Assembly: GCA_051886655.1 (NCBI GenBank)
Contig: JBJEYJ010000086.1
Coordinates: 38 to 64,037 of the forward strand
Source: Bacilli bacterium
GTDB taxonomy: Bacteria; Bacillota_I; Bacilli_A; RF39; UBA660
Length of the DNA stretch: 64,000 nucleotides
Direction of reading: 5' to 3'
This document shows, piece after piece, positions 1 through 42,573 of this stretch (position 1 is the stretch's first letter; every line of letters begins with the position of its first letter). The notes beneath the pieces were generated by a model. The model made no database searches and was not told the DNA's origin. It saw only the letters and a list, made by a program, of their open reading frames with translations. The position numbers and the translations under genes were made by a program.

Positions 1-1748
1 CCATTATTATAGTTAACAGTTAATGTTCCATCTTCAGCTAAAATAATACTATCAATTCATTTAATTTTGTTATTAGTATTAACATCTACATCTTCTCCAT
101 TTCCGCTATAGTGCAATGTAAGAAGACCATCTTCTGATAAACTAATATTATTAACTCATTTTAAATCTGTCTCATAAATATCATTATCTGTACCATTATC
201 TCTTTTAGTATTATAAGTTACAATTAAATGACCTTCATCAGTAGCTCCTTGAGTAGAAGATATTGCAACACTATTTATTCATCTTATTTTATTTTCAAAA
301 ATTTCATTTTTCTGTTCAATATTGTCTTTATAAGAATAAGAAAAAGTCATTGTTCCATTTTCATCAAGTGTAATATCTTTTATATATTGTAAATGAGTTT
401 CATAATGTGTTGTTGTATCTGGTATAGGAATTTTTTCTCCATTTACATCTAATATAAAATCTCCATTTTCATCTCTTTCATATTCTTGATCATAATTATA
501 ATCTATTTGTAATAAACCTGTCTCTGGATTTATTTGAATTCTATCAACAGCTTTTAAATAATTAGGATAATAATCTCTATGATTATGTGTATAATCAATA
601 ACAATAGTTCCATCTTCATCTATACGAAAATTATCTATCATATTATAATTACCTAAATAAATAGATATTGGATCTCCACTCGCATCTCTATCATAATTAT
701 AGTAATCATAAACTAAAATTTGTTTTTTATATGTTTCTGATGTATCTCTATAACTTTCTCCTGGATCTTGACCTTCATCAGTTCCAAAATGGATACCATT
801 TTCACTATTATCTATATCTACTGCTTGAACTACTCTAAAATTATTAAATGTTTCACCTTTTATTCCCTTTGGAATAGAAATATGTCATTTAGAGAAAAAT
901 GGATGTAGTAAGTCATCTGTTCTTTCAATTAATTCTGCATTATCAAAATCTGTAGTATTACCCTGTTCAGACCAGCCTTCTCAAGGTTTTCCTTTTCCTA
1001 CTTCTTCAGCTAAATATTTTGCATCATCCGTTCTATGATAATAAGGACTAACAGATTCAGCAGTATATTGAGGAACATGATAAGGAATTTTAAATCCAAT
1101 ATGAACTGTACTTTCATGTGATTCAAAATCTCTAATTGAACAAGCTATATATTCAATAGTATCATTAAATTTTTCTTCTCCATTTTCATAATATTGTCCT
1201 GGTAATAAATCACCAGAACCTTCTTCTGCACTTAATATATCTAAAGTTGCTTGAGTCTTTCTATATTGATTTAATTCTCCATCTTCAATAGTAGTTCCAT
1301 CATTTGGAATTACTAAACCATCTTCAGTTGTCATCTTTTGGATTGTGTCATAATTTTCTAATTCAGTATGAGGTGCCATTCCTGCAGGACCAACTATTTG
1401 TCCTATATAAACAGCTCCACCCATATCATTATTATATTCATATCCTCTACGATATACTTTTCCATTATCTATATCATTTTTATTATACGTATCTATTAAT
1501 ACATATTCATCATAGTTAACTGTTTTATATCCTCCAGCTTGACTAAAACAATAAACCATACAATTTTCTGCTAACCATTTATTTCTATTTTCAGAGGAAA
1601 TCTCTGCATCTTCTGGCAATTGTAAATCTTGTCTAATAATTTTATTAAAACCAAGATTATCTTCTGCTGGAGCTTTAATTGTTTTATATCTTTTTACTAT
1701 TACGAAGGAAGCACCTCGTCTTCCTCCATAGAAACTATTATATTCCAT
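1..1748 (-). CDS. tail fiber / host-recognition-like structural protein. Its 3' end is cut by the window start, so at least 580 aa lie inside the window. Frame is open only if TGA is sense.
   Basis: ATG at 1748 is preceded by AGGAGG. Track ORFs 981..1748 and 279..641 are in the same frame and separated only by TGA codons (981, 279, 156, 57). No in-frame TAA or TAG occurs down to position 1. Confidence 0.6.
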
Positions 1749-1762
1749 TTATGTGCCTCCTT

Positions 1763-2470
1763 CTAATATTGATAATCTAAAATAAAATATTTATTATCAT
1801 CTGGTGTTACTACAAAACCAATAAAATTAATAACTACTCCATTATTAATTTCATACAATCCGCTACGCCCTATTTTTATTTCTTCTCCATCTATACACAT
1901 TTGTAATCCTGGAGGTCCTTGCACTCCTATTTGTTTTAATTGTCCTTTGTTATCAATAGAAGAATTTAAAATATCTATTACATTATTAATTTCTTCTAAT
2001 CTATCTATTTCAAGTTTTACTATTCTCCCATAAGTTCCATCGCTATTTACAGTATTATAATCATCAACAATTCTATTTAAAGTAAATTCTATTCTATTAT
2101 ACACTGCGTTTGGAGGTATAACTATATCAAAAACTGAATAATCAGATTCATAACCTTGATCAACAGTAATAGTAGTTAATGTTTGAACATTATCAGTTTG
2201 TTTTAATGTATTTATTAATTTAATAGTAACTACTTGTGTAGTTTCTCACATTTTATAAACTTTATATTTTAAATAATAATTTTTTCTTTTTAATCCAGTT
2301 TCATCTACAAATTGCAATACATTATCTCCTGATAAATCAATTACTTGTTCATTAAAAATAACAGCTTTAGATAAAGGAGACTCTTCTTGAACACTTGTTA
2401 AATTATAATCTAACTTCTTTGAATAAGAATCATTTTGTCCACGTCTAAATTGACCAAATTTATAACTCAT
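1763..2470 (-). CDS. tail-associated structural protein, about 235 aa, with one in-frame TGA
   Basis: Track ORFs 2246..2470 and 1763..2104 are in the same frame and joined across a TGA at 2246. AAGGAG RBS lies upstream of the ATG at 2470. TAG stop is at 1763. Confidence 0.65.
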
Positions 2471-2490
2471 TTTAACACTCCTTTTCTATC

Positions 2491-4494
2491 CTAAAATCTT
2501 TCTAATGCTCTTGTTGCGGAAATTGTCATTGTTCCACTTATATCAAGAGGAATAGAAATCGTTGAGATCATATAATCTCCATAAATATTACTTTCTATAT
2601 CACGAACTCCAATTCTAGTATTAGGTTCTAAATGATAAATTGGCACTGATTGTAATGTAATACTTTCATTATAACTTGTATATTGATATAATAATTCACG
2701 AACTTTATTATAAGCAGAATTTTTACTTCCACCACCTGCTAACATACTATAAATTGAAGAATCTACTTGAATATAATTTTGTCCCTTTAATTCACATTCA
2801 TGACGTTTTTCTTCTGTATCATCTTTACCAAGTTCTATTAAAATAAAATCTGGTATATCTGGTTCAAATATACAGTTGATATCATTATCATTTATAACAA
2901 TTGTGCGTCGTCCAATATTAGAAATACTAAACTGTGATATTGCTGCGGTAGAATCAATAAAATCTAAATAATAATCAATGTTACTTGGAGTTTTTAATAC
3001 TTCAGGATAAAACTCTCCTAGTTGAACATCATATAATTTAGGTCATTCATTTAATAATTCAGTATAATAATAATTTGAATCAGTTCCAAAAGGTTCAGAT
3101 TGAACACCAGATAAATATAATTCTGTTCTTCAATCTTTAGTAGTAACTTCTGTCATGCCTATAGTATAAGGTATATATCCTTCTCCATTTCAAATATAAA
3201 TTATTCCTGTATCTTTAGCCATATAAAATACACCTGCGGCGCCCGCATTTTTATTAATTTCTTCAAAATTTTGATATATAATAGGGCATTTTGCTTTTAT
3301 TAATCCATCATCTGGATCTTCGTAAAAGAAACACTGATATGTATTTCCTATTTTAGGTTTACTGTCTATAGCTAAGTGATATCGAATAGGAACTTCATTT
3401 CCATTAGCATTTTCTTTAATTCCTCAAACTATAAAATCATTTTTTATCATATTATACTGAGGATTATTAGAATATGAAGTAATTAGATTGCTATTATCAA
3501 AGTTATATACGACTTTCCCTTTACTAATATCAATAATATAATCATCTTTAGTTAGTTTTTCTAATTCTATAGTTGCTTGTGATGTATTTAAATAATTTTT
3601 AATTTCTTGAAAATGAAAATTACCATCTATGTCATAAAAATATTCAAAATTACCTAGCGCATTTTTAATAGAATCTAATATAGTACAAACAGTACTTCCT
3701 GCGTCTCCAATTAGTTCATTTGGATAAATAAAGTCAGTATAAATAAAACCTATATCTTCTCCATATTCAAATGATTTATATGCTTTTCCTTGCGCTTCAG
3801 AATAGTTAGTTGTCATTGTATATGAACCGCTATCTTCAATTAAATATACAGGTGTATTTCCTATTCATTTCATAACTTGCTTTACTCTTGTGTCTAAATC
3901 ACTAATTAAAATTTTACTCAATTGTTCGCCTCCAAAGTGATTAACAACTTCTCTAATAATTTGAACAATTACTGGTTTTTCTATAATTCAATTTCCATTT
4001 TCATCAATAGTCTCATATTCATCAAACTGAGTTGAGGCTGGAATAGTACCTCCGCATTCACCATTTAATAAACACATTTTATCTTTTAATTGTAATGATA
4101 TTGAAGTTCCACTCGTACTATGTGAAATTGATGGATTAATAATTACAAAGATTCCTTGCGGAAATCATAACATATCATATTCTTTATATTTATCTGTAAT
4201 ATTCTTAAAACCTATTTCTAATCTAACTTTTTTGTTAATAGAAATTAAATTATCAACATTAGTAACTTTAGAATAATCTTCATCATGAATATAGACAGAT
4301 AAATTACAAGTTCTTCGTATTGAAGATTTACCATCTAATGTTAAATTTCCTCCTGTAATAATTCCTTGTATATCTTGTAAAGGTCTCTCTAATCAATCTA
4401 ATATGGTAATTTTAGCATACTGTTCTTGAATATGTAATTCATCTATATATTTTAAAAAATTTTCATCTTTTAAATATTTATATTCTTGTCTCAT
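2491..4494 (-). CDS. tail / baseplate structural protein, about 667 aa. The start is tentative; there are many in-frame TGA codons.
   Basis: Frame of track ORFs 3424..3816 and 2491..2745 is continuous when TGA is sense. First in-frame TAA upstream is at about 4510. ATG at 4494. TAG stop at 2491. Confidence 0.55.
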
Positions 4495-7256
4495 TATTCA
4501 TACCACCCTTTATAAATTTCACAAGTATAATCTATAATAGCTTCAACTGGACATAATAAATCATGAGTATCTGTAAATAACCATCATTTATCATTATATC
4601 ATATATATTTATTTTCTGTTAAGTTATCTGATAACATACTTGCAAAATTTTCATCATAAGATTGTAATATTAATTGAGAATAAACATCATTTTGAGATTG
4701 TTGAATTTTATCTATTGTTAAAATAGATACATCTTCTTCTAAAACAGAATTAGTATCAGTTAATATATATACTCCATTTTTTATTGGATTTATAATTTCA
4801 TTTAAATTAGATGTTTTTATTCCAGTTTCTATATATCTATAATCTGGTAATAAATCTCTAGATTGTTCCTCTATAGTCGCTTCTTCAAAATGTATTCCTG
4901 CAAAATATAATCCAATAATAATTGAATCTTCATCTTCAAAAGCTAATGTACAAGTAGGACCTATAATATGGCGTTCAAAATCACTCTCTTTAGTTTCTGC
5001 CACATACACAACTGTTCCTGGATCTGCTTCAATTCTTATACCATCTAGTGATAACATTGATTGAATATAAGTAGAATATTTTTCATAATATTTATTTCAT
5101 ATATTTTTAAATATAGAATCTTTATATCCAAAAGTACCTCATTGCTGACCTACCTTTTTACTATATTCAATAGTTTTAGGAAGTTGAGACTTATCTTCTA
5201 CTTGACTTATAGAAACATGATAAGTTAAATTTATTTTTGTATCAATAGGAAATACTATTGATGTAATTTTTACTCCTTCATTTTTTAACTCATAAATACC
5301 TTCTGGATTTATTACAATATTTTCTCCATTTATTTTTACTATATATCCTAAATATGATGAAATTGGATTAGCATCTACATCTGGATATTCATCATCTATA
5401 GGATAAGGCTCTCCAGCATTATCTTCTTTAATTAGATAAGGATCTTCTTCCATTTCTATCCTTAAATAATCTAAATAATCTGCAGTACAGATAAACCCTT
5501 CTTTCATTAATTTATTATATTTTTCTTGAATTAAATCTAAAACATCTACTCCTGTGGAAATAGTCTCTTCTAATTGTCCCATAAATTCTTCTGTATATGC
5601 TAATTCTGTATCTACTTCTCCAAGAGGCTGAATATTATATAAATTACAATTTTCCGTTGTAAATTCAGCTATTTCATAAGCATTACAAGAAAAACTATAA
5701 ACTAATCTTCCTAATGTCTGCTCTGGTGTAAAACTAATATCCATTAGTTTTACTAATATATTTCCTTCAGTTGGAGAACGAAATAATTTTACATTATTAT
5801 CATATAAAAACTCCATAACTTTTTCTCTAAAATCTCTTTCATATGTATAATCATTAAATGGAGTTATTCTATTTTCTGAATTATAATTATCATATAACTC
5901 TAATATTTCTTCATTATATAACTCTTCTCTAGAAGTTAACAATCCATCCTGGTCAGTAAAGTGAGATATTAATCCATTAATTGGAAATTGTCTATAATAC
6001 ATATATCCATTTCTTTTTATATAAGGATATTTAGAGCCAATTGTATCTGTCTTCGTTTCTGATACTGCATATTTAAAATTAGAAATTTGTGGATTAAATT
6101 TAATATTTAGTTGCTTTCCTTGAGTAGTTAAAAACATATTATCAAATACTACCATAACTGGATTTTTTAATTCTGTAACGACTCCTCTATTTCCTAAACT
6201 ATCTCTCTTTTGAGCACAATATTTATATCATACTCCACTTTTTATAGTGCAATCATATCATGTAATATCTAGCATTTCATTTTCAATAGATAAAGTATAA
6301 ACATCTTCTCATAAAGTAAAATTATTCTCACTTGACGTTCTTCTTATAGTTACGTTTCCTGTAAATCTATCAGTAGTATTACCTTTTATATTAATTCCAA
6401 TTCTACCACCTTCTTCATCTTTGATTGCAGAAAGAGTAGCATCCATTCTTCCAGAAGTTCCTACCATTACCATAAAAGTATATGTAACTACATCGCTATA
6501 TGCATTATTTGTAATATATTCAATAGTAACAGAATAGGTTTCTCCATCTTGAAAAGCGTATTTAAATGTATAATTAATCTCATTAATATTTACATAATTA
6601 TTAGTATATATTATATCACTATCTGTTAATAATTTTCCTAAATCATTATATAGTTTAATTCTATAACTTTTTAAAGTTTCAGTTTCTTCTGCATTTACAA
6701 AAGAAAGTTTTCCTGCAATAGTGATTAAATCAGTTGTCCATACTGTGTATTCTGCGGCGGTCTCAAACCCAGGAATCTTTAATGTTGGAGTACTTATTCC
6801 TCTAACTAAACAAACTGTAGACCATTCTGAGAACATTGATAAATTTGCTGCTAATCAACTGTCTATTGCTTGTGGAGTAGTCATACTGATAGAAGAAGCA
6901 TTTACTGATGTAAATCTAATTTGAACTTTATAATATTGATTAATTTCAAACTGATTATTCATCATATCTGTTTTCTTTATTTCAATATAATATTTATCAT
7001 CTGATTCTCTTTCTCTATCTATATAAATATTCGTTAACATTATTCCACAAGGATATTTTTCTTCATTTAATACTGAAGTGTTTGTATTTTGATTACATAT
7101 AGTAACTTGCGCATTTTGTATATCTGAATAACTATTATATAATGAAATAGAAAAATATATTTTACAAGTATTTTTTGATGTATTAATACTATCAATTAAA
7201 AAAGCTGGCGCATATGTATTTACAATTGGTGGATAAAGATTATTTAATATTGCCAT
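4443..7256 (-). CDS. large tail fiber / baseplate protein, about 937 aa
   Basis: Track ORFs 6855..7256, 6309..6836, 5139..6155 and 4599..5057 share one frame and are separated only by TGA. First real stop is TAG at about 4443. AAGGAGAG RBS precedes the ATG at 7256. Confidence 0.65.
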
Positions 7257-7287
7257 ATATTTTTCTCTCCTTTTCTCTCTTATATTT

Positions 7288-7794
7288 TTATTCTTTAAAT
7301 TCTTCCTCTTGTTCTTGTTCTTGAGGAATTACAGAAACCTTTGGTAGTCTTCTGATTTCTCTCATTAAATCTTCTATAAAGCTATTGCCGCCTTCATCTT
7401 TATAATGAGAATATCTTTTTTCAATACAATCTAAACTATAATCATCAATATATTTTAAGTCATAACAAAAATGATGATGTTGTTGTGTTATTCAAGACTT
7501 TATATCATCTTTATCTGAAGTTATAAGTAAATTAATAGTCTCTTTCATATTTAAAATTTCTGACATTAAATTACTTTGTTGCTCTAAAATTTGTTTAACT
7601 TGAGCATTACTTTGTTGAATATGAATATCTAATGCTTCTTTTTCTAATTGAGTTTTCATTTCTTTATTAAAAATCTTTTTAAGTCTATCTACCGCTCAAT
7701 CAAAAAAAGTTACAACACCTTTTAAAGCTAAAGCAAAAATTACCAAAAAAGTAATAATTTCTGTAAAAGAATAATTAGTTAATAAATCTAACAT
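7288..7794 (-). CDS. membrane protein of about 168 aa with an N-terminal TM helix and a coiled-coil tail; candidate holin or lysis-associated protein
   Basis: Not in the track because two TGA codons split it. AGGAGG RBS then ATG near 7794, TAA near 7288. Translation begins MLDLLTNYSFTEIITFLVIFALALKGVVTFFDW... Confidence 0.45.
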
Positions 7795-7888
7795 TATTTT
7801 TGCCTCCTACTTTATTCTTTTATTTTTACTAATTTTATATTATTTTTGTATTTTGATAATGATAATAAATAGCCCAATAATTTAAATA

Positions 7889-7919
7889 TAAAAAAAAGAG
7901 GTCTATAATATATAGACCT
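7889..7919 (-). terminator. rho-independent terminator (AGGTCTATA..TATAGACCT plus U-tract) after the 35-aa gene
   Basis: Perfect 9-bp stem with a T-run on the minus strand immediately 3' of the stop at about 7920. Confidence 0.5.
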
Positions 7920-8027
7920 TTATTTTAAATATTCTTCCATTTCTGGATATCTTTCAAATACTTGTTCTTTTGATAATTTTCCTATATCTATCTGAATTTT
8001 TAAATATTTTTTTAATCCTTCACTCAT
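7920..8027 (-). CDS. small protein of about 35 aa
   Basis: GGAGGATATAAAA then ATG. Translation MSEGLKKYLKIQIDIGKLSKEQVFERYPEMEEYLK. TAA stop followed by a terminator. Confidence 0.35.
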   Translation of the reverse strand: MSEGLKKYLKIQIDIGKLSKEQVFERYPEMEEYLK

Positions 8028-8042
8028 TTTTATATCCTCCTA

Positions 8043-8324
8043 TTAAAATCCTAATAGTAAATTTACTGCATCTTCTAATGCAGAAACTTTTTCTTCTAGA
8101 GAATAATTTTCTTTATATCTAGGATTTAAATAAAAATTCTCTTCATTATTATAACAATACTTAATTGGTGCTACATCTTCAGGAATAGATTCAACAGAAT
8201 AAATTTCTTTAACTAAATTTTTTGGAATAATAATCCCTTCATCTAATTCTATTATATTACTATCTTCTCTAACATCTTTTGAAATAGCAATAATTATATC
8301 ATTATTTTTTGTAATAATTTTCAT
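8043..8324 (-). CDS. hypothetical protein, 93 aa
   Basis: Track ORF. AAGGAGG RBS; ATG overlaps the upstream stop (TAATG). TAA stop. Confidence 0.6.
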   Translation of the reverse strand: MKIITKNNDIIIAISKDVREDSNIIELDEGIIIPKNLVKEIYSVESIPEDVAPIKYCYNNEENFYLNPRYKENYSLEEKVSALEDAVNLLLGF

Positions 8325-8325
8325 T

Positions 8326-32674: not shown

Positions 32675-33316
32675 TTATTTAATGATTTTATATTTAGAGT
32701 TTGCTGCTGTAGTTACTGGTGTACTACGTCTTCCAGTAGCGTTTTGATCGTTGACAACTGGAGTTGCTCTTCTTACTTTTGTTTCATCAGAAGTATCATT
32801 ATTTTCTGTTTCTTTATTAATTTCTATAGCTTTAGTAACATTAAATCCTGTTTTTTCTAAAATTACTTGACGTTTTGCAACATCATTTAATTCAGTTTTT
32901 ACAGCTAAATCTTTAATTAAATCAATGACTCCTTTTGGAGCAAAGTCTAAAGTATCTTTAAATTGATCTAATGTTCCATTAGATAATAAATACTTTATTT
33001 CTTTTTCACTATATTTATATTCTGGTTCAACAGAACCTAGTAATTCAGCAATAGCTTCATCATTTTCAATCATTAGGCAATCCTCTAAAATAACTTTTCC
33101 GCCAGGTATATATGATAATTTTCTTAATTCTTCCATCGTAACTTCTTTAGTTTCTCCAACACTAAAGTCACGATGTAAATTTCCTAAATCTGGAATAGTA
33201 TAACCAACTCTTCCATTATCTCTATTTCTAACTTTTATTAATGTATCTTTGTCTAACATATTTTTATTCTCCTTTTCTCTCCTTAATATATTTACAAAAA
33301 AATTGGGGAAGAGCAT
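32675..33316 (-). CDS. hypothetical head-associated protein; probable start is at MLDKD... near 33259
   Basis: Track ORF. An internal ATG is preceded by AAAGGAGAA. Confidence 0.5.
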   Translation of the reverse strand: MLFPNFFVNILRREKENKNMLDKDTLIKVRNRDNGRVGYTIPDLGNLHRDFSVGETKEVTMEELRKLSYIPGGKVILEDCLMIENDEAIAELLGSVEPEYKYSEKEIKYLLSNGTLDQFKDTLDFAPKGVIDLIKDLAVKTELNDVAKRQVILEKTGFNVTKAIEINKETENNDTSDETKVRRATPVVNDQNATGRRSTPVTTAANSKYKIIK

Positions 33317-33370
33317 AATTAAAATCCTCTATTCAATTATACTATAATCTTCCCCTATATTTTTAAACTA

Positions 33371-34396
33371 TTATCTAGTTAAAGATGTATTTCTATATAC
33401 ACAGATATTATTTGTAATAATAGCTGCAACACCCATTTTCTTATAAACTTGAACTTCTCTACTTCTGTCATAGTTTTGATATTCATTTACAATTGTAGAA
33501 CCTTCAAATGCAACTCTAACTGGTTTACTAGCTCCTGTAGGGATAATCCATGCATATGCTGGATCGATTACTTTAACTTCATTAGTTTCATCTTCATAAG
33601 ATTGTGGTAATACAATTACATTATGTCCTTTATAATTAGCTAAGTATCCATTATTCCATCTTTGATCTTTCATATCATTGCTTCTCCATCCTTCTTCAGG
33701 AACCATTGTAGCAGCAAATTCGAAAGTACAGTAAATAGTAGATTGACCATAAGAGTCAGCAATACTAATTAGTCTATCCATTTCATTTTCTACGAAACTT
33801 GTTTGAGATGTTTGGTTAGCAGCTGGTAAATTTGTAACAGCTCCTTTTAAAGCTCTTTCAATTTCAATATAAACACATCTGTCTAAACCTTCCATAACGA
33901 TGTCTAAAACATCTGCAAAATCTACTCTTCCATCTAGAAACTCTTCAAAACCAATTTGAGCAGCTCCACCGAAAGCTGATGTTGGTACTTCAAATGTTTT
34001 TCCATCTAATTTAAATACTTCATAAATACCAGCTAATCCAACTTTAGTAATAAATTGTTTAGCACGTCTTTTAGATGCTTCTGTAATTCTTTGTGTAAAT
34101 ACAGGTTTGTCTCCTTGAGCAAAAGTTTTTACTTCAGCAAATTGTCCATATTGTTCCATAACTTTTCTTGGTAATACATCATCAATTGTTTCTTCAATTA
34201 ATGAAAATACTGTATTTTTATTTTCTCTATATAATTGATATGTTCCAGCAATTTCTTTAAGTTCATTTCTTAAAGTTTCATTTAAATCTGAGTAGCTAAA
34301 TTTATCTTCTCCAAAAGAATAAGCAACTTGTGAAGAAGGATTTGCATTTGCTACTGTTTTAGCTAATTTAATTAAATCTGATTTATTTAAACTCAT
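33371..34396 (-). CDS. major capsid protein, 341 aa. All 3 Trp are TGG and there is no TGA.
   Basis: Uninterrupted ORF with AAGGAGG RBS. It follows scaffold and head-protein genes. Size and composition are MCP-like. TAA stop. Confidence 0.65.
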   Translation of the reverse strand: MSLNKSDLIKLAKTVANANPSSQVAYSFGEDKFSYSDLNETLRNELKEIAGTYQLYRENKNTVFSLIEETIDDVLPRKVMEQYGQFAEVKTFAQGDKPVFTQRITEASKRRAKQFITKVGLAGIYEVFKLDGKTFEVPTSAFGGAAQIGFEEFLDGRVDFADVLDIVMEGLDRCVYIEIERALKGAVTNLPAANQTSQTSFVENEMDRLISIADSYGQSTIYCTFEFAATMVPEEGWRSNDMKDQRWNNGYLANYKGHNVIVLPQSYEDETNEVKVIDPAYAWIIPTGASKPVRVAFEGSTIVNEYQNYDRSREVQVYKKMGVAAIITNNICVYRNTSLTR

Positions 34397-34411
34397 TATA
34401 TCCTATCCTCC

Positions 34412-34975
34412 TTACGCAATTCTCATTACCTTTACGGCAGCTTGACCGTCAGCTAATGTATAAATTTTTACTACTTGGAATTTAATTGATCCATCACCAG
34501 TTTTAGATAAATATCCTTTAGCATTTGGAGATAATTCATCTCCTACTGATAAATCTTCTGTTCCTGTTATTTCTGCTTTTCCATCTGTATTTCCAGCTTC
34601 TAAGCAGTTTGTTGTGTAAATGTCTCCTATATTTGTTTTTATAACTCTAGGAACCATTTGACCTTTGAATGGTCCATAACCTTCATGAGTATAGTCAGAA
34701 CCTTTTGTATAATTTTCTTTAATCATGGCGAAATCTTTATATGTTTCTCTCCATCTATCATCATATAATTTTACTTCGTTGAATACCATCATCCATTCGC
34801 CTTTACCTGTAAAATTAACTTCACTATTAGCGTAGTCATATTTTACATATTGACCATTTTCAAGAACTTCAATATCTTCTGCTGCAGGTAATTGAGCATA
34901 AATTTGAGCTGTTCTTTGAGCTGATAAATGATTAGGTTCAACTTGACCAAAACCAATTCTATTAATTGTAGCCAT
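34412..34975 (-). CDS. head protein, 187 aa (decoration or auxiliary capsid protein?)
   Basis: Uninterrupted ORF between the scaffold and MCP genes. Confidence 0.5.
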   Translation of the reverse strand: MATINRIGFGQVEPNHLSAQRTAQIYAQLPAAEDIEVLENGQYVKYDYANSEVNFTGKGEWMMVFNEVKLYDDRWRETYKDFAMIKENYTKGSDYTHEGYGPFKGQMVPRVIKTNIGDIYTTNCLEAGNTDGKAEITGTEDLSVGDELSPNAKGYLSKTGDGSIKFQVVKIYTLADGQAAVKVMRIA

Positions 34976-35001
34976 TATGTATCCTCCTTATTTTTATTAA
35001 A

Positions 35002-36375
35002 TTAATTCTCTCTACTTTTTTGAGTATTTTTTAATGCTGTAACCCATGCTGGCACAGAACTCTCTGTATTTTCAAGAGTATAAGTTGTAACTTCTTTATC
35101 TTCTACTGTATTATTATTTTTTGAAGAATTGTCTAAATCAAAATTAACCTTTTTTCTAACACAAATTATAGATAATTTTGCTTCAATGTCTTCTAATGAA
35201 TAATTAGCTTTATTTGCAATAACATCTGCTTTATCTTCATCTGATAACATATAGAAAGATTTAATTAATTCATCTTTTTGTTTATTTTCAATTTCTTGTT
35301 TAAATTGAACAAGTGCTTCATATTTTTCATTTAATTCAGCATATTGAATTTTTAAACTTTCATTTTCTTCAACTAATAAAGAATATTTTTTAGATTCATC
35401 GTCTTCTTCTTCTTTATCATCATTTTTTTCTTTTTTGTCATCTTCTTCAGAATTATCTTCTGCATGTTTAGTTTTTTCTTTCTTAGAACTTCCTCCTCCA
35501 CATGCATTTTTTGTAACATCTTCTTCTTCATCATCTTCATTTTTAGCAAATGTATCTTGAGCAGATTGAGCCTCTGTAGAATCTTGATTTTCAATTATTG
35601 GAGTTTCATTTGTTAATTCTTCTTCATTATTAACAATTTCTTCTTCAATATTTTCTTTATCATTATCCATATTGTTTTGTCCTCCTTCTAATGCAAATTT
35701 TAATTCTTGCATCATAGTATACAATGTTTTCTTAAAAGTATCATCTACTTTTGTAAATGAAGTACTTATTTCTGGTGCGGTAACACTTGCGCCTTCAAAA
35801 CAAGGCTCAACATCATCACCTAAAATACATAATTTTGAAAATATTGCATCATTTATAATGAAAAAATCCATACCAGTTTTACTATTTGTTGACCAATTTC
35901 CATCTAAAGAATCTTCATCTAATTCCATAGATTGAGGTCTACCTTCTTGTAATGCTAGCTGACATTCTTCATATTGTTTTGTCCATAAATATCCAGTAGT
36001 CATTAAATACTCTCTAGTTACTGTATTTCCAAAATCATCTGTATCTTCAAATTTTTGAAATCAAACTTTTGCGTCAGGAGCTACAAATCCATAAGGTTTA
36101 GTTAAACATTCAAATTTAATTCCTTCATCATCAAAAATAACTCTTTCTCCATGATCTGCAAAGTCTTCTTTTTCCTCTTTATAATACCCAACAATAGGAG
36201 CACCTCTAAGAGTTTTTGCCATATCACTAGCTACTTCTTTTGTTATATAGCTATGATTACGATTTTCTCCAATATATAAAACTTTTATTTCACAACTAGA
36301 CATTAATGGATTAATATCTAATGGTTGTAAGTTAATAAATTCTGGAGAATCAATAGTTGCTATAGATTGATGCAT
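35002..36375 (-). CDS. capsid scaffolding protein, about 457 aa, with a highly acidic coiled-coil C-terminal half
   Basis: Track ORFs 36061..36375 and 35002..36003 are in frame and joined by TGA at 36061. The D/E/K-rich low-complexity region is typical of scaffold proteins. TAA stop. Confidence 0.55.
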
Positions 36376-36451
36376 TGTATAATTCTCCTCTCTCTTAATA
36401 ATTAACTATAATAATATGATTTCTTACTTAATCAAATTATTATTTTTTGTC

Positions 36452-38050
36452 CTAATTTTCACTTTCTTTATTTTGTATTGTTTTTTCTGTAACATCTTTT
36501 CCTTTAGACTCATTAGTAGGTCTTCCGCCTTGACTATCTGAATCACTTGTTTTATTTCTATTAGCTAATACATCTGCATTCATTGTATTAGAAGACATTG
36601 GTGGTATGAATACATTTACCAAGTCTAATATATCATTTTCAAAATATGCATTTGCCAATATTGAACTTTGAGATTGACCCAACGCTATCTGCGGCAACAT
36701 TTTTGAATATCCTAATTGAGTTTGTTCTTTATAAAGTTTAGCCATTTCTTTATAATTATATATTGTAGTAGTTAAAATAGAAATTCTATAATATAATTTT
36801 TTTGGAGATGTATTAAATTTATCATTAATAACATAATTTAAAAAATCTTCAAATTGAAGAAGTAAATTATACATTGCTGCTTCATCATTTAATATAGATT
36901 TTTCTAATGCTATATTTCCATCTGTATTAAATTGCATTTGAGAAACACCAGCTTCATTATATACAGTTCTTTCTACTTTTTCTAATTCGTCTACTGTTGT
37001 TGTAGTGCTATTATCAGCCATGTCCGCAACATCAACATCAGCAAAAGTAGTTAATACATCTATACCAATTGCTTTACCCAACATTCTTACTGCATTATTA
37101 TGTAATTGTTGTGCTTCATCAACATCAAAAACTAAATCTCCATTTTTATCTACTGGCATTTTTTGAATAATAATTTTTAAAAGTTTTTGAGCCATTTTTT
37201 TTCTATCTAATTCTTGAGCTTCATCCAAATCTATTATAGATGGTATAACTGAAATAAAAGCAGGAAAATCCTCTCCATTTATATTAAATTTTATAACGTT
37301 TTTTGTTTCTAATAAGTACCATCCTATTGTATCTCCAGCGAAATCAGGTTTTAATTTATCTTCTTTATAAGCAATGTAACCTTTTCTAAATTCTTCTGGA
37401 AATAATTTTAACATTTTTATTCTTTGAGTTGTATCTCTAAACATTTCATCAAAAAATTTCATATTAAATTCAACTGCAGGACGTCCATTTACACTAAATC
37501 TAGAACGACAATACGCAGCAGGTAATTCTTGAATAGTAATTCTATTATCATTAGGAATAATATATCCATAATAACATCCATTTCTAATAACTTTTAAAGC
37601 TACCTCTCCAAAATATCTTTTTATATCTGAATTATCTAAATAATTTAATACTTTATCAAAAGTACTAAGTATTTTTTCATTTTTTACAGAATCTGAATTT
37701 ATATAAGGTGTAACCATTCAATCATATCTATATAAATATGCCATATAACGGCACAATCTTGAATAAATACCACTAGTTTTATAAAAGAAATTAGAAACAT
37801 CTCTCATAGTATCATAATCAGAATTATTAATCGCTCTTAATACTTCTTTTTTATCTCCTAATCTAGAATTGATTTTTTTATAATTACTTAAATCAACAAC
37901 AGCATCATCTAAAGTTTTTACTCCAACTTTAATTTTTGAAAAATCAATTTGATTAAAAGGAATATTATTATTAAAATTATTTCCGGTGTCATTAATAGTT
38001 TCCATTGAAAACCCTTTTTTCTTAATTTCTTGCATTCTTCTATTAATCAA
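36452..38050 (-). CDS. portal protein, about 532 aa
   Basis: Track ORFs 37718..38050 and 36452..37717 abut at an in-frame TGA. Position is between terminase and scaffold. Size is portal-like. TAG stop. Confidence 0.6.
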
Positions 38051-38088
38051 AGATAGACACCTTACCTTTCTTCTCTATTTTTTGTATA

Positions 38089-38457
38089 TTAAAAACCTCC
38101 TGCCGCATAATAAGCATTCATTATATAATCATAATTGATTCTTCCTTCATCCGTATATGGAATTGCAATTAAAATAATATTATGTTTTCTACAATAATCT
38201 CTTTTTTGCATATCATTATACTGTTGTTTTCTTAATCCAGAAAAACCACCAAACTTACTTTTAGGTTGATAATGTTGAATACCTTGATATTCAATTAAAA
38301 AATCTAAATCATTATTATCATCGAATACAGCAAAATCAAATCTTAAAGGTCTACCATTCGAACTAATCAAATCAGGAAATGAATATTCTTCTATAAAATT
38401 TAAGTTTGCTTCTTTTAAAATTTCTTCTATTTTTATTTCACCACGACTAGCTCTCAT
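38089..38457 (-). CDS. PD-(D/E)xK-type endonuclease, 122 aa (free-standing homing-endonuclease-like insertion between terminase and portal)
   Basis: D...(D/E)xK-like motif FDFAV...DFLIEYQG. A small gene in the classic homing-endonuclease location. Confidence 0.45.
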   Translation of the reverse strand: MRASRGEIKIEEILKEANLNFIEEYSFPDLISSNGRPLRFDFAVFDDNNDLDFLIEYQGIQHYQPKSKFGGFSGLRKQQYNDMQKRDYCRKHNIILIAIPYTDEGRINYDYIMNAYYAAGGF

Positions 38458-38537
38458 AAAACCTCCTTTTAATATACTTTTTGAAATCTATAATTATTTT
38501 ATTTTTTATGTATAAAAATATTCCAAAATTGTCCATT

Positions 38538-40271
38538 CTATGAAAAGAACATCATAGCAGCAATATTTCTTTGTTTTTTTCTTTTCTTTTTATCCTCTTC
38601 TTGTTTTATATAATATAGTCCATATTCAAAAGCAGAAAACTTATCTTTTTTTATTCCTCTTGAAGATTGCTTTAAAATAATATTAACACCTTCATTTTCT
38701 TCTACCAAATTTAACATTTGTTCTCTTAAAATAGTTGTTAATGTAAATGGTTTTAAGTACTCTGCTCTTTTATCTGCGTCCATATTCTGTCCCATTTTTG
38801 TACCCATTAATTTAGTTTTTGCTTGATTTTCATCTATTAAAAACTTTATCTTTCCGCTGGCTAGTTGAGTTTGTACATACGTATGGGCTTCAGTATTTAT
38901 TGGTGCATTTGCTTTAATTAAAAATAATGCATCTATTTCTGTTTCTCCAGTTTTATATTTTTTATAAAATCCTTCTTCATCATTTTCTACTCCAAAATCT
39001 GGTAATATTTCTCCGCTATCAGGATCTATTTGTGATTTAACCATATAATCTATTAATCCAATACCAAGTCCATTAGCATCAATTGCAATTTTTCTAGCTT
39101 TATATTTATAAAATAATCTTTTAATGTTAATAGCCTGTTCTTCAAAATGCTCTTCTTCTCAAGAGTACAAATTAACTAAAGTTTTTAATGAAGTTCCTTG
39201 CGCTTGCGGCGTTACTTTAAAAACACAAACTTCAGTTGTGCAACCCTTACGGCCAACGTCAACTCCAAGCACATAATATGCAGTTTTTGATGACCTTCCG
39301 CTAAATTCATATTCAGGTTGTAATAATACTCTATGTTTATCAAATTTTTCCGCAGAGAAAAATGCGTTTTCAGCATCACCACTTCATTCTGATTCATACT
39401 CTCTTGCAAAAGAACTATCATTATAAGTTCCATCTAATTTCAATTCTTCAATAAAACTTTTTCTTAATAACTTTTCCATAACAGGAACTCTTCAAGTTCC
39501 ACCTAATACAATAGCTTGTTCTGGATCAATTATTTGTTGAATTAAAGTTTGAATTAATTTTTCATAAGCAAAAGAATTTTTTCAACCAGCAGTAGTAACA
39601 AAAATTTGAGATTTATTAATTACTTCTTCCTCATGTCTACTTCCATCTGATAATCTTCTATCAACGTTCATAGTAGGAATAATAACTTCATTTAACATTG
39701 TTTGGTCTACTAGTATACACTCTTCAACTAATCCACCAGTAGCACGCTTACCTCTTGAAGATTGTTGAGCTGCCATAATATCTAACTTACTACCATTTTT
39801 AAATAAATATTCAACCATATTTTTAGAGGCTTTAGACGCTCCTCTTGACCAATCAATTTCATTCTTTAGTCCCGGAATTAATTTGCATAATTCTTCAGCT
39901 TTCTCTCTTGCAATACCTGCCGCCTGTTCTTTTCCTCCAGTAGTAACAAATAAATGAGCTCCTGGATATAAAACACATCTCAACATTAAAATTAATACTG
40001 ATAAAAATGACTTAGAATAAGCACGAGGAAAAGTTGCATAAGCATATCTATGACGCATTACCGCCCTTAAAAATAATCTTTGATAAAAAAACAAATGAAA
40101 ATTCTCTGGATTATTTCCGCATAAAAATTCAACAAACATATCTGGATATTCTCTTCAATATGCAATATACTGTCTAATTAATGGCATTTGTTGTCTAATT
40201 CTTTCTTCTGAAATACCTGTCTTTTTAGTCATCATAGAAGAAGATAATTTCATTAAATCTGCTAATGCCAT
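38538..40271 (-). CDS. terminase large subunit, about 577 aa
   Basis: Track ORFs 39582..40139 and 38538..39044 plus unlisted in-frame segments are joined by several TGA codons. ATG at 40271 overlaps the upstream TAG. ATPase and nuclease-like regions present. TAG stop at 38538. Confidence 0.8.
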
Positions 40272-40273
40272 GA

Positions 40274-41458
40274 CTAATCATCCCCTTTATATATTTCTTC
40301 ATCATTTTGTTTTTGTTCTTCTATACTATTATAAAATTCTTCAATATGTTCATCGATTAATTCACTTGGTTCTCCTGTTTCAAACTCTTGATCACTAGCT
40401 TCATTTAATTCTTGTTGAATTTGAATTTTCTTTAATGCATCTTCAATTTGTTGTCCAAAACCTAAATCTTGTGTAACAAGTTTATAAACATAATTATTCA
40501 TATCTTTTAATGTTAAGTCTACTTTATCTTGAGGAATATCTGTCGCAAAACGTGGAATAAAACCTTCTCTTTCACACATTGCAACTAGCTCTCCAACACA
40601 ATCAACAAAATCATTTTTTTCCTCTTTATTTTGAGCTGCAGTGAACTTTGCTGATTTTCTTAATGATTCGGATACTCTAGATAATTTTTGAAATCCATCT
40701 AAATCTCCTATATCTATTGCTTGATTCATTTTTAAATTTGTTTTACAAATCAAAATTAGAGTATTTATTGTATCCGCATCTTGAATATCAAAAGAAGCCA
40801 TCATTTCTTCATACATTTTTTCTAACTCTATTCATTCATTAGGTTTATATAATCTTCCTCATTTCATAGCTAAATATAATTTATCATCTTCTGTTAATTC
40901 TGCCGCAGGACCGCTTAATTCATCTTCATCTATGAAAGAAACATTTGAAGCAAATGGATTTCCAGATTCACTAGGAGATTGAGTAGGGGCAGCCGCATAT
41001 AATTCATTTTGTGCTTTTGCGCTTACTAAAGTTTTATATTCTGCTTCACTAATTTCTCCATTAGCGTATCTTTCTTTTGTCATTTTTTCTAATTCTTCTC
41101 ATTCTTTAGTTTTATTTAAATTTGTTTCTATATTTTTAGCTTGTAATTTTTCTGAATCACTCCATCTAAAATCTTTTCATTGCTTTAGTTTCATTTTTGA
41201 TATATACTTACCAAATACAGACATTCCATTTAAATTAGGATTTTTTGCAAAAGCTCTATCTCTTAAAACATTTCATTCCTCTGGAATATAAGGAACATCC
41301 ATTTTTTCTAATAATCATAAAAATGTGTCTGGATTAAAATTATCTATATGCATAGTTAAACATTTTTTACATAATTCTGTTTTTCTTCCATCTTTATATG
41401 TATAAAATTGATTTTCATCCATTGTCTTTCCACATTTTTCACAAACACATGTAGACAT
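40274..41458 (-). CDS. DNA-packaging / terminase small subunit-like protein, about 394 aa, with an N-terminal C4 zinc ribbon
   Basis: AAAGGAG RBS. CVCEKCGK...CKKC motif. Five in-frame TGA codons. Lies immediately upstream of terL. Confidence 0.4.
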
Positions 41459-41475
41459 ATTCTTCATCTCCTTTA

Positions 41476-42573
41476 TTTATTTTTATTATTTCTACAATCT
41501 TTACAAATTGAATAAAATCCATCTTTAGATGTTTTATTCTTTGAAAAGAATTTATTATTAGCTAGTTTAATTTGGCCGCATCTTGAACATTTTTTTCATT
41601 TGCCATATTCTCTTTCTGTATAATACCAAATTAAATAATCTTTTTTTGCGTATTCGGCTAATAATTTTGGAATTTTATTACGCCATAAAGAAGATATATA
41701 CTCTACTGAATGTTTTATACCATATTTCATTTCTAATAGCATTTGAATTTCTACATTTTGTTTACCGTCAATTTTATATATTAATAAATCATAATATAAA
41801 GGATACTCATCTTTTAATGTATCTTCAATTAAATTATCTAAATCTTCCATTAAATAATATATATCATTAATAAAATTTCCATAAGCTTCTTCCTTTAATG
41901 TAGAATAGTTGCATAATAAAGCAGATAAATGTTTAGGATTAAAAAATGACACTAATCCATCATTATGAGGCTCACCATTCTCATCGATGGTAATTTTATC
42001 TGCAAAATCAGAACGTGCAAAACTTTTTATCATATTTGAACCATAAATAGGTTGTTTATATTCTCCTTTGATTGTATATTGACTTTGACACATTTCAATT
42101 AATTGTTTTTTAAGTAAAAATTTCTTTTTTCCTGTTGCCTGTTTTTCTTGCTCTTTTACAATATCTATTGCTTCTTTTAAATCTCTTAATGGTTTAATTT
42201 CTTCTAAATCTTTTTCTGTAATTGAAACTTTTGGAGTTAAAATAACATTTTTATCTTCATGAATTAAATTATAAAGACCATCTTCTCCATTCTCAAATTT
42301 ACTTACTAATCCTTGATAAGATGTTTCTCTTTTATTTACAGTTATCATTCTATTTTCAGTTAATATATTTCTTTGTTTTCTTTCTTCTTTATCCATTGCA
42401 AAAATAATATAATCAGACAATATTTCTATATATTGATTTGTAAGTTTTTCTGGTGGTAATTCTTTTATAATTTTTGCTACAAAATCACTACGTTCTTCAG
42501 GAGACTTTAAAGTATAATCTAACTTTTTTGCGGTATTATTATTCTCTTGTTTTTCTACTTCCGCGTCATTCAT
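41476..42573 (-). CDS. hypothetical protein of about 365 aa with a C-terminal zinc ribbon (CSRCG...CKDC)
   Basis: Track ORF 41596..42573 continues past TGA to TAA near 41476. First gene of the leftward operon. Confidence 0.55.

What the first reader, a model, noticed from the sequence alone, without database searches (positions are those of the whole stretch)
1..42573. TGA is a sense codon (probably Trp) throughout the structural/lysis module but absent from the early genes: stop-codon recoding restricted to late genes
Every boundary I checked between consecutive minus-strand track ORFs is TGA. These include 25117, 23875, 20302, 19789, 16763, 15866, 14495, 6309, 5139, 4599 and 39582. True gene ends are TAA or TAG followed by an RBS and ATG. 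Reading TGA as sense gives full-length phage proteins: a 2801-aa tape measure protein, a 1559-aa tail protein, TerL and portal. In the endolysin, a TGA falls at the W of the GH25 W[IV]AQ[YW] motif (..DKYDK-TGA-VAQW..), favouring Trp over Gly. In the plus-strand early genes (42752 to 52474) every Trp is TGG, none contains TGA, and all stops are TAA/TAG. Late-restricted recoding of this kind has been reported for some metagenomic phages (I cannot verify the citation here) but remains little studied. The strong SD sequences and LexA boxes here argue for a standard-code host rather than a native code-4 Mollicute.
Basis: partly seen in the sequence, partly recalled or inferred. Interest (0 to 1): 0.9.

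Follow-up and report, generated by a model that had tools for sequence, protein, structure and literature searches.

The report
Phage late genes read TGA as tryptophan
This is part of a large gut phage genome whose late (virion, packaging and lysis) genes use the stop codon TGA as a tryptophan codon, while its early genes use the standard code. The case is real and clean, but this kind of recoding was already described in 2021-22.

Summary
All 11 quoted ORF boundaries are TGA. Reading TGA as sense turns the minus strand 3..42573 into 31 gap-free genes with about 100 in-frame TGA against 35 TGG. Twenty-five early genes have 0 TGA against 50 TGG (Fisher p = 7e-23).

TGA means Trp. All 22 TGAs in 15 late genes align to TGG in a standard-code relative (TerL 92% identical), which also uses TGA as a true stop.

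Three corrections:
- One gene outside the module (52798..53508) has all four of its conserved Trp positions as TGA.
- Two early genes do end in TGA, each with a TAA close behind.
- Ten late-module genes have no TGA, including the major capsid and tail tube proteins. Every recoded relative shows the same avoidance.

No tRNA, release factor or TrpRS lies in the window. The agent that switches the code was not found.

The phage is SPbeta-like. Its relatives have ~127-141 kb contigs and use code 11, code 4 or code 15. This matches the 'Agate' phages of Borges et al., so I rate it a new member of a known kind.

The parts
3..42573 (-). Late structural, packaging and lysis module. It holds 31 contiguous ORFs when TGA is read as sense, and 21 of them contain in-frame TGA. 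The ORF at the left end runs off the window.
   Evidence: About 100 in-frame TGA against 35 TGG. All stops are TAA or TAG.
41473..42573 (-). First gene of the module: a sigma-factor-like protein with a C-terminal Zn-ribbon. It has one TGA at codon 326 of 366, just before the Zn-ribbon.
   Evidence: PHROG 5767 'sigma factor', E = 6e-51. The TGA aligns to W in relatives. This gene is the first to acquire TGA in barely recoded relatives.
42639..42667 (-). Near-consensus sigma-A-type promoter (TTGACA, 17 nt, TG-n-TAAAAT) upstream of the late module.
   Evidence: 11 of 12 positions, extended -10. This is a consensus match only; function is not shown.
40274..41467 (-). YonG-like protein, 6 TGA and 1 TGG.
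   Evidence: PHROG 3314. The L001 ortholog carries PF27269 YonG_N. All 6 TGAs align to TGG in L001.
38538..40271 (-). Terminase large subunit (YonF-like), 5 TGA and 1 TGG.
   Evidence: PHROG 2, plus two 'unknown' PHROGs that each match one half of the protein. The TGA positions are W in 119-120 of 120 homologs. All 5 align to TGG in L001.
36452..38050 (-). Portal protein, 1 TGA and 1 TGG.
   Evidence: PHROG 2739, E = 1e-79.
33371..34396 (-). Major capsid protein (YonB-like), 0 TGA and 3 TGG.
   Evidence: PHROG 4088. The L001 ortholog carries PF27364 YonB. No TGA in this gene in any recoded relative.
28481..29407 (-). Tail tube protein (YomU-like), 0 TGA and 1 TGG.
   Evidence: PHROG 2729. The L001 ortholog carries PF27173 YomU_Tube. 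No TGA in any recoded relative.
17839..26244 (-). Tape measure protein, 2801 aa, 25 TGA and 4 TGG.
   Evidence: Identified from its size and its position after the tube and chaperone genes.
13058..17737 (-). Tail protein of 1559 aa, 15 TGA and 2 TGG.
11543..12637 (-). Endolysin with GH25, two CW_7 repeats and LysM. Four TGAs lie in the GH25 domain, and there are 3 TGG.
   Evidence: Pfam PF01183, PF08230 and PF01476. Alignment to PDB 2ww5 and 4jz5.
7288..7794 (-). Protein with an N-terminal transmembrane helix (candidate holin or lysis regulator), 2 TGA and 0 TGG.
   Evidence: Sequence. Conserved in relatives. It resembles the 'strongly recoded TM protein' of Agate lysis cassettes.
52798..53508 (-). 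Stand-alone gene outside the module ('gene X'), 236 aa, 4 TGA and 0 TGG. It is predicted to be a protein of tandem winged-helix domains. It is convergent with the early operon.
   Evidence: The 4 TGAs fall exactly on the 4 conserved W columns, which are W in 118-120 of 120 homologs. AlphaFold model pLDDT 91.5. Only weak winged-helix matches in PDB. Terminators flank it.
42689..52474 (+). Early block in standard code. No in-frame TGA, and 10 perfect sigma-A promoters. Genes include NT5C-like nucleotidase, exonuclease and T5orf172.
54038..62957 (-). Second TGA-free block with 35 TGG. Genes include DUF2828/DUF7788 (vWA) and HNH.
44727..45038 (+). Early gene that ends in TGA. The TGA is part of an ATGA overlap with the next gene's start codon, and a TAA lies two codons downstream.
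57198..57551 (-). TGA-free-block gene that ends in TGA immediately followed by TAA (tandem stop).

Best explanation
The window is roughly half the genome of a large SPbeta-like siphophage. Its host is probably a low-GC Gram-positive gut bacterium that uses the standard code.

The phage writes its early genes in the standard code. Each sits behind a consensus host sigma-A promoter, has no in-frame TGA and encodes every Trp as TGG. It writes most late genes, plus one stand-alone winged-helix gene, with TGA as the main Trp codon. The late genes cover a sigma-like factor, terminase, portal, tape measure, tail and baseplate proteins, endolysin and a membrane protein.

Proposed sequence of events:
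1. Early in infection the host ribosome and RF2 read TGA as stop. Any late mRNA then yields only short truncated products. TerL would stop at codon 39, the tape measure protein at codon 63 and the endolysin inside its GH25 domain.
2. A code-switching agent made from standard-code genes accumulates. This is most likely a phage opal-suppressor tRNA-Trp (anticodon UCA) encoded outside this window.
3. TGA-containing messages are then translated in full. This couples packaging, tail assembly and lysis to the switch.

The most abundant virion proteins (capsid, a 187-aa head protein, tube) keep TGG, presumably because suppression is less efficient than normal decoding.

Shown: TGA is a sense codon meaning Trp; its distribution among genes; standard-code early genes; close standard-code relatives. 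Inferred: the timing of expression, the suppressor tRNA and the regulatory purpose.

The confidence of 0.85 is for the overall picture. TGA = Trp in late genes alone is about 0.97. The suppressor-tRNA step alone is about 0.6.
For: - ORF structure and codon counts.
- 22 of 22 TGAs align to TGG in the standard-code relative L001, which itself uses TGA as a stop.
- W is conserved at the TGA positions of TerL, gene X, the sigma-like protein and GH25.
- Functional annotation of the late genes.
- 10 perfect sigma-A promoters lie in the TGA-free plus-strand block; 0.17 are expected by chance.
- The IMG/VR relatives form a graded series from no in-frame TGA in any scored gene (L014, L018, L019), through 1 (L006) and 5 (L005), to most Trp codons in several late genes (L008, L023). 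TAG-recoded members also occur.
- MCP, the 187-aa protein and the tube protein have no TGA in any recoded relative, whereas TerL, the YonG-like and the sigma-like genes are heavily recoded.
- TGA is rare as a stop: 2 of the 55 complete genes tallied, both backed by a nearby TAA.
- The same pattern and model were published for 'Agate' phages.
Against: - No suppressor tRNA is present in the 64-kb window. ARAGORN, Rfam at gathering and E-value thresholds and a relaxed custom scan for UCA anticodon loops all found none.
- No RF1, RF2 or TrpRS was found among the proteins scanned.
- A TGA-recoded relative (IMGVR_UViG_3300031992_000032, the same phage as Ga0247610_10000100) was sampled over about 89 of 127 kb. 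It has a 10-tRNA cluster with an amber suppressor (CUA) but no UCA tRNA.
- The rest of this phage's own genome could not be retrieved.
- Expression timing is inferred from promoters and gene functions only.
- A near-consensus sigma-A promoter also precedes the late module, so 'late' is not proven at the level of transcription.
- The host is unidentified.
Confidence: 0.85

Rival explanations
1. The code switch does not use a canonical phage opal-suppressor tRNA. The phage might weaken RF2 and let host tRNA-Trp (CCA) read UGA. Alternatively it might use a non-canonical RNA encoded in its long non-coding regions.
For: - No tRNA of any kind lies in the 64 kb.
- About 70% of a TGA-recoded relative's genome shows no tRNA(UCA), although it carries 10 other tRNAs.
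- Borges et al. detected opal suppressors in only 35% of code-4 phage genomes.
- The window has an 840-nt non-coding stretch with a tRNA-like T-arm/acceptor element and an HDV-like ribozyme.
Against: - More than half of this phage's genome is unseen, and 30% of the relative's.
- The tape measure gene has 25 TGAs, so decoding must be very efficient at each site. Near-cognate reading is not expected to achieve that.
- The tRNA-like element has no UCA anticodon loop.
- Agate reference genomes are reported to carry suppressor tRNAs.
Confidence: 0.1
2. The host itself uses code 4 (TGA = Trp), as Mollicutes do. The phage would simply share its host's code.
For: Low GC content of about 27%. TGA is the majority Trp codon in late genes.
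Against: - 25 genes have 0 TGA against 50 TGG, and two of them use TGA as a stop.
- Relatives with TerL 92% identical use TGA as a stop and TGG for every Trp.
- The endolysin has peptidoglycan-targeting GH25, CW_7 and LysM domains, which serve no purpose against wall-less Mollicutes.
- Borges et al. report that phages of natively recoded (code 25) hosts carry in-frame TGA in about 90% of genes.
Confidence: 0.03
3. The TGAs are damage or artefacts: a decaying prophage, sequencing errors, or a chimeric assembly of a code-4 phage with a standard-code phage.
For: Under code 11 the module looks like a row of broken genes.
Against: - Only TGA interrupts the frames, never TAA or TAG.
- The TGAs fall on conserved Trp columns: 22 of 22 against L001, and 4 of 4 in gene X.
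- Many independent contigs show the same pattern.
- The junction at 42.6 kb is syntenic with single contigs of relatives. L001 and L162 both span it.
Confidence: 0.01
4. TGA encodes glycine (code 25, as in Gracilibacteria and Absconditabacteria and their phages) or selenocysteine.
For: None specific. This is the other known bacterial reassignment of TGA.
Against: TGA positions align to W, or to Y, F or L in distant GH25 homologs. G appears only once, at a single position in one of 120 gene X homologs. With about 100 sites, selenocysteine is not plausible.
Confidence: 0.005

Closest known systems
'Agate' clade of stop-codon-recoded gut phages (Borges et al., bioRxiv 10.1101/2021.08.26.457843; later in Nature Microbiology, from my own knowledge)
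   Same: - Large genomes: a ~127-kb TGA-recoded lineage and a clade mean of 154 kb.
- Codes 11, 4 and 15 occur within one clade.
- TGA-recoded and standard-code members are very closely related.
[quoted passage not shown]
- A recoded transmembrane protein sits in the lysis region.
- TGA is depleted as a stop codon and GC content is low.

The relatives found here have the same sizes and the same mix of codes.
   Different: Membership could not be tested directly, because no Agate reference genome is in the collections I could search. Several details seen here are not mentioned in that preprint: avoidance of TGA in capsid and tube genes, the fully recoded stand-alone winged-helix gene, and tandem TAA back-up behind the TGA stops of early genes.
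phAss-1 / proposed Phassvirus (PMC10607447)
   Same: A ~136-kb gut siphophage with a very long tape measure protein. Its TerL matches at 45% identity. It is compared with Spbetavirus. Stop-codon recoding affects TerL, portal, TMP and tail genes. The predicted host is in the Clostridia.
   Different: phAss-1 recodes TAG to Gln and carries 36 tRNAs, three of them amber suppressors. The window recodes TGA to Trp and has no tRNA.
Bacillus phage SPbeta and SPbeta-like phages (Geobacillus E3, Enterococcus H1/EF1, Lactococcus 949)
   Same: The structural module is shared. Orthologs carry the YonB, YonD, YonG, YomU, YomV and YomW Pfam families. TerL is 31-46% identical to their YonF-type terminases. 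Genome size is about 130-140 kb.
   Different: In the TerL search, these phages' terminase genes are annotated as single continuous features, unlike the three fragments in recoded phAss-1.
crAss-like and Jade phages with late-gene recoding and 'code change modules'
   Same: Early genes are in standard code and late structural and lysis genes are recoded. The proposed role is to time lysis.
   Different: These are unrelated lineages with different predicted hosts for crAss-like phages (Bacteroidetes). Most use TAG to Gln. Jade phages carry a suppressor tRNA, TrpRS and RF1 next to the lysis genes, and none of these is present in this window.

Membership tests
Code-4 (TGA to Trp) recoded phage with recoding biased to late genes | In-frame TGA breaks conserved phage genes under code 11, and reading TGA as sense restores full-length genes. 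| tested here: met
   TerL, portal, TMP and others become full length. In one search, two separate PHROGs of unknown function each match one half of TerL.
Code-4 (TGA to Trp) recoded phage with recoding biased to late genes | TGA positions correspond to Trp in standard-code homologs. | tested here: met
   22 of 22 against L001. TerL: 119-120 of 120 homologs at each of 5 positions. Gene X: 4 of 4 positions. W of WVA in GH25.
Code-4 (TGA to Trp) recoded phage with recoding biased to late genes | Recoded codons are concentrated in structural and lysis genes, and early genes are compatible with the standard code. | tested here: met
   103 TGA in the late module against 0 in 25 early genes. The one exception is gene X at 52798..53508.
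Code-4 (TGA to Trp) recoded phage with recoding biased to late genes | The host uses the standard code. | tested here: inconclusive
   Indirect evidence only: TGA stops in close relatives, TGA-free early genes, and a peptidoglycan-directed endolysin. No relative was found in 185,579 GTDB species genomes, so the host is not identified.
Code-4 (TGA to Trp) recoded phage with recoding biased to late genes | Phage-encoded code-change machinery: tRNA-Sup(UCA), RF1 or TrpRS. This is frequent but not universal (35% of code-4 genomes in Borges et al.). | tested here: not met
   None in the 64-kb window. The rest of the genome is not available.
Agate clade (Borges et al.) | Genome of about 127-154 kb, and a clade that contains code 11, code 4 and code 15 members. 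| tested here: met
   Relatives' contigs are 125-143 kb. Standard-code, TGA-recoded and TAG-recoded TerL loci were all found. The window itself is only 64 kb.
Agate clade (Borges et al.) | Terminase phylogeny or ANI places the phage with Agate reference genomes. | not testable with these tools
   Reference genomes such as GiantTortoise_AD_1_scaffold_344 and pig_ID_3053_F60_scaffold_12 are not in the searchable collections.
SPbeta-like structural module | Orthologs of YonB, YonD, YonF, YonG, YomU, YomV and YomW in conserved order. | tested here: met
   Pfam labels on L001 orthologs that are 76-94% identical and collinear with the window. TerL matches YonF-type terminases.
Phage of a native code-4 host (Mollicutes) | TGA is used as Trp in essentially all genes, and TGA is never a stop. 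| tested here: not met
   0 TGA in 25 genes holding 50 TGG. Two genes use TGA as a stop.
Code 25 (TGA = Gly) phage | TGA aligns to Gly in homologs. | tested here: not met
Theta (tRNA-associated HDV-like) ribozyme (PMC10879173), for the element at 56003..56072 | An HDV-like double-pseudoknot core, with a tRNA ending within about 5 nt of the cleavage site. | tested here: inconclusive
   The core is present: RF02682 at 38.8 bits, below the gathering score of 44. P1 to P4 can be drawn by hand. No tRNA abuts it. A relative has the same core motif directly 5' of a tRNA-Met.

The most novel reading that the evidence does not exclude
This lineage may decode about 100 UGA codons as Trp without a canonical phage opal-suppressor tRNA. 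Two routes are conceivable. One is a non-canonical RNA from the non-coding, tRNA-like and ribozyme-bearing regions. The other is disabling RF2 so that host tRNA-Trp reads UGA.

Supporting facts: the 64-kb window has no tRNA at all. A TGA-recoded relative, sampled over 70% of its genome, carries 10 tRNAs including an amber suppressor but no UCA tRNA.
Probability: 0.1. Interest if true: 0.75.

Novelty: new member of a known kind. Interest (0 to 1): 0.33.

Why it matters
Annotation: under code 11 this phage's TerL, tape measure, tail and lysis genes are cut into meaningless fragments. Two PHROG families of 'unknown function' match only the front and back halves of TerL.

Biology: this is a clean case of a virus using a codon reassignment as a translational gate between early and late genes.

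The relatives found here form a graded series. Some have no in-frame TGA in the scored genes, one has 1, one has 5, and others have most Trp codons as TGA in several late genes. All keep TGA out of the capsid and tube genes. This series could be used to study how a codon reassignment starts and which genes tolerate it.

None of this changes the published picture. It adds detail to it.

Tried and rejected
**Retrieving the rest of this phage's genome (failed)**
- An exact 40-mer from the window's right end is absent from IMG/VR, GTDB genomes and JGI metagenomes.
- Exact-protein look-ups found only one 5,965-bp Logan contig or nothing.
- The nearest DUF2828 homolog on a long contig is only 66% identical.

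**Finding a suppressor tRNA (none found)**
- In the window: ARAGORN, Rfam at two thresholds and a custom scan for UCA loops all found nothing.
- In 16 loci from TGA-recoded relatives: nothing.
This reached a 10-tRNA cluster without a UCA tRNA.
It returned only unrelated contigs.

**Other attempts**
- Host identification by prophage search in GTDB found no relatives.
- The left-end tail-fibre protein found no relatives in IMG/VR.
- A fold search for gene X gave only weak winged-helix matches.

**Readings rejected**
- Native code-4 host, code 25, selenocysteine, pseudogenes and chimeric assembly (see the rival explanations).
- I considered whether the T-arm/acceptor element at about 56240..56290 is a split or permuted suppressor tRNA. 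I rejected this because it has no UCA anticodon loop.

Full report
**1.

The window has about 27% GC with a strand-skew switch near 42.6 kb. Under the bacterial code, the minus strand from 1 to 42.6 kb is a row of short ORFs.

With only TAA and TAG as stops, the same strand becomes 31 contiguous genes. They include a 2801-aa tape measure protein, a 1559-aa tail protein, a 577-aa TerL and a 532-aa portal. Long-ORF coverage of 1..42600 rises from 0.61 (code 11) to 1.09 (code 4), but only to 0.62 under code 15.

The late module has 103 in-frame TGA and 35 TGG. About two of these TGAs probably lie upstream of the real starts of the endolysin and baseplate genes. Twenty-five genes between 42689 and 63787 have 0 TGA and 50 TGG (Fisher p = 7e-23). 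TGA plus TGG makes up 1.0% of late codons, close to the 1.18% TGG in early genes. TGG alone would give an implausibly low 0.26% Trp.

**2. TGA means tryptophan**

- I queried TerL with X at its five TGA positions. All 120 listed homologs have W at four of these positions and 119 of 120 at the fifth.
- These W residues are independent evidence. The contig of one such homolog (L001, ENA ERZ16268222 scaffold_58, 141 kb, TerL 92% identical) has no in-frame TGA in 23 genes, uses TGG throughout, and ends four genes with TGA.
- Codon-level alignment of 15 orthologous late genes (69-94% identity) shows 22 of 22 window TGAs opposite TGG, and 16 of 16 window TGGs opposite TGG.
- In the GH25 domain of the endolysin, the TGA in ..DKYDK-TGA-VAQ.. 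aligns to the W of WVA in PDB 2ww5. The other TGAs align to Y, L or F, never to G.
- Glycine (code 25) and selenocysteine are therefore excluded.

**3. What the element is**

PHROG and Pfam searches identify the following:
- a sigma-factor-like first gene;
- a YonG-like protein;
- TerL;
- the portal;
- a capsid protein;
- a virion or tube protein;
- an endolysin with GH25, two CW_7 repeats and LysM.

The collinear orthologs in L001 carry the SPbeta families YonG, YonD, YonB, YomW, YomV and YomU. TerL is 31-46% identical to the YonF-type terminases of Geobacillus E3, Enterococcus H1/EF1, Bacillus and Lactococcus 949-like phages. It is 45% identical to that of phAss-1, a TAG-recoded gut phage (PMC10607447).

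Thousands of relatives exist, on contigs of about 125-143 kb. The window is therefore about half of a ~130-140-kb SPbeta-like siphophage genome. The cell-wall-binding endolysin points to a Gram-positive host. No relative was found in 185,579 GTDB species genomes, so the host is unknown and integration is not evident.

**4. Early versus late**

The TGA-free plus-strand block (42.7-52.5 kb) contains 10 perfect TTGACA-N17-TATAAT promoters, against 0.17 expected by chance. It also has canonical Cheo/LexA boxes, including a tandem pair at 46460..46497.

The late module has one perfect consensus promoter inside it, at 26918..26946 on the minus strand. A near-consensus one lies at its head, at 42667..42639. 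Lateness at the level of transcription is therefore inferred, not shown. If the head promoter is active early, the TGA codons themselves would be the gate.

**5. Corrections and additions to the finding**

(a) Recoding is not strictly confined to the structural/lysis module. Gene 52798..53508 (-) is a stand-alone unit, convergent with the early operon and bracketed by terminator-like hairpins. It has 4 TGA and 0 TGG. These fall exactly on the four conserved W columns, which are W in 118-120 of the 120 full-length homologs. Its model (pLDDT 91.5) is a set of winged-helix-like domains with no close solved relative.

(b) Two TGA-free genes end in TGA. One sits in an ATGA overlap with TAA two codons later. 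The other is TGA-TAA. After a code switch, these proteins would grow by at most two residues.

(c) Ten late-module genes lack TGA. The capsid protein (3 TGG), the neighbouring 187-aa protein (2 TGG) and the tube protein (1 TGG) use only TGG. The same is true in every TGA-recoded relative examined. In contrast, TerL and the YonG-like, sigma-like and 321-aa proteins are mostly TGA. The Borges preprint does not mention this. It fits suppression being less efficient than ordinary decoding.

(d) Relatives form a graded series:
- L014, L018 and L019 have no in-frame TGA in any of the genes scored.
- L001 has none within its called genes.
- L006 has a single TGA, in the sigma-like gene.
- L005 has five, in the first two genes.
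- L026 and L015 are intermediate.
- L008 and L023 are heavily recoded.
- A GC-richer branch has in-frame TAG instead.

The closest relative of the window by nucleotide identity is the standard-code L001, at 82% over the late module. The recoded IMG/VR genomes are 71-75% identical.

**6. Mechanism**

Shown: TGA is a Trp sense codon in about two thirds of late genes and in gene X. TGA is absent from sigma-A-driven genes. It is nearly abandoned as a stop: 2 of the 55 complete genes tallied, against 4 of 23 genes in L001.

Inferred: early genes are translated under the host's code. A code-switching agent then accumulates and allows full-length synthesis of terminase, tail, lysis and other proteins. 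Before that point, TGA truncates them early. The 25 TGAs in the tape measure gene require efficient decoding at each site, which argues for a dedicated suppressor.

The agent itself was not found:
- The window has no tRNA.
- It has no release factor or TrpRS among the proteins scanned.
- In most relatives, the DUF2828/vWA gene lies directly downstream of an array of 5-30 tRNAs, often with an amber suppressor. The window has an HNH gene and a divergent module at that position instead.
- I walked one TGA-recoded relative (IMGVR_UViG_3300031992_000032, identical to Ga0247610_10000100) over about 89 of 127 kb. It has a 10-tRNA cluster (Asn, Sup-CUA, Met, Met, Glu, Val, Lys, Leu, Leu, Tyr) and no UCA tRNA.

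This leaves a modest chance that decoding in this lineage is unconventional. Unsampled sequence is the simpler explanation. Borges et al. also detected opal suppressors in only 35% of code-4 genomes.

**7. Comparison with what is known**

Borges et al. (bioRxiv 10.1101/2021.08.26.457843) describe eight clades of recoded gut phages. Their 'Agate' clade has these features:
- genomes averaging 154 kb, with a well-sampled ~127-kb TGA-recoded lineage;
- codes 11, 4 and 15 within the clade;
- a TGA-recoded genome and a standard-code genome above 90% ANI;
- a strongly recoded transmembrane protein in the lysis cassette;
- depletion of TGA stops in low-GC relatives.

The window and its relatives match every one of these features. 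Direct placement with Agate reference genomes was not possible with the collections at hand. The finding is therefore a new member of a known kind. Suppressor-tRNA-linked HDV-like 'theta' ribozymes (PMC10879173) and the TAG-recoded phAss-1 group (PMC10607447) are related published context.

**8. Verdict**

The phenomenon is not new. Interest is moderate to low for novelty. The added details are TGA avoidance in abundant virion proteins, a fully recoded stand-alone winged-helix gene, tandem back-up stops, a graded onset series, and the missing suppressor.

Noticed in passing
window 56003..56072 (-), within the non-coding stretch 55735..56575: An HDV-like self-cleaving ribozyme candidate. It matches Rfam RF02682 at 38.8 bits, below the gathering score of 44, with E = 1.7e-5 in a local search. 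P1, P2, P3 with a UCCUCGU loop, and P4 can all be drawn by hand. No tRNA abuts it, unlike published theta ribozymes. The strict core pattern occurs once in the window and in none of the 285 loci fetched by then.
   Followed up: partly
window ~56240..56290 (-); L287 19623..19840 (-): A tRNA-like element with a T-arm (GTTCGAG loop) and an acceptor-like hairpin, but no anticodon arm. It lies about 170 nt upstream of the ribozyme. A TGA-recoded relative has the same order: a permuted tRNA-like element, then a CCUCCUCGUGG ribozyme core, then directly a tRNA-Met. It could be a Y-RNA-like or processing-related RNA. No Rfam family matches it.
   Followed up: partly
L288 2359..2550 (-) (Ga0247610_10000100, same phage as IMGVR_UViG_3300031992_000032): A reduced (~190 nt) RNase P class-B-like RNA (45.6 bits, E = 4e-10, below the gathering score of 97). 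It sits inside the 10-tRNA cluster of a TGA-recoded relative. The same cluster carries an amber suppressor tRNA (CUA). That relative's baseplate gene also shows in-frame TAGs, which hints at dual recoding.
   Followed up: partly
window 60757..62301 (-); loci L046-L125: The DUF2828/DUF7788 (vWA-type) gene lies directly downstream of arrays of 5-30 tRNAs in most relatives. Some arrays also hold a tmRNA and amber suppressors. The window and the TGA-recoded relative L061 have no array there.
   Followed up: partly
window 44666..50690 (+) and 26918..26946 (-): Eleven perfect TTGACA-N17-TATAAT promoters, against 0.17 expected by chance. Ten lie in the early plus-strand block, within an ~80-nt repeated unit that has an A/T-rich upstream element and an extended -10. 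One lies inside the late module, upstream of the chaperone and tape measure genes.
   Followed up: yes
window 46460..46497, 48558..48569, 48631..48642, 51355..51366: Cheo/LexA-type boxes (GAAC-N4-GTTC): 4 exact matches against 0.23 expected. They include a tandem pair, CGAACAAATGTACG and CGAACAAATGTTCG. They lie in unusually GC-rich intergenic segments of the early region.
   Followed up: partly
window 48050..48427, 50242..50607, 55363..55719 (family A); 50715..51125, 54038..54439 (family B): Two small early gene families are each present in several diverged copies on both strands. The same families recur in relatives next to a sigma-70 gene, which the window lacks (L162).
   Followed up: partly
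window 53586..53649: A near-perfect palindrome with a stem of about 24 bp and a GC-rich core flanked by A and T runs. It lies just upstream of the fully recoded gene 52798..53508. It is probably a bidirectional terminator, or possibly an operator.
   Followed up: no
L006 and L005 (IMG/VR relatives), sigma-like and YonG-like genes: Genomes that otherwise look standard-code carry 1 (L006) or 5 (L005) in-frame TGAs at Trp positions. These lie only in the first two genes of the late operon. They look like incipient recoding.
   Followed up: partly
PHROG families phrog_15503 and phrog_24618: Two PHROG families of 'unknown function' (245 and 230 positions) match the N-terminal and C-terminal halves of this TerL. 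They are probably built from terminase fragments mis-called under code 11 in recoded phages.
   Followed up: no
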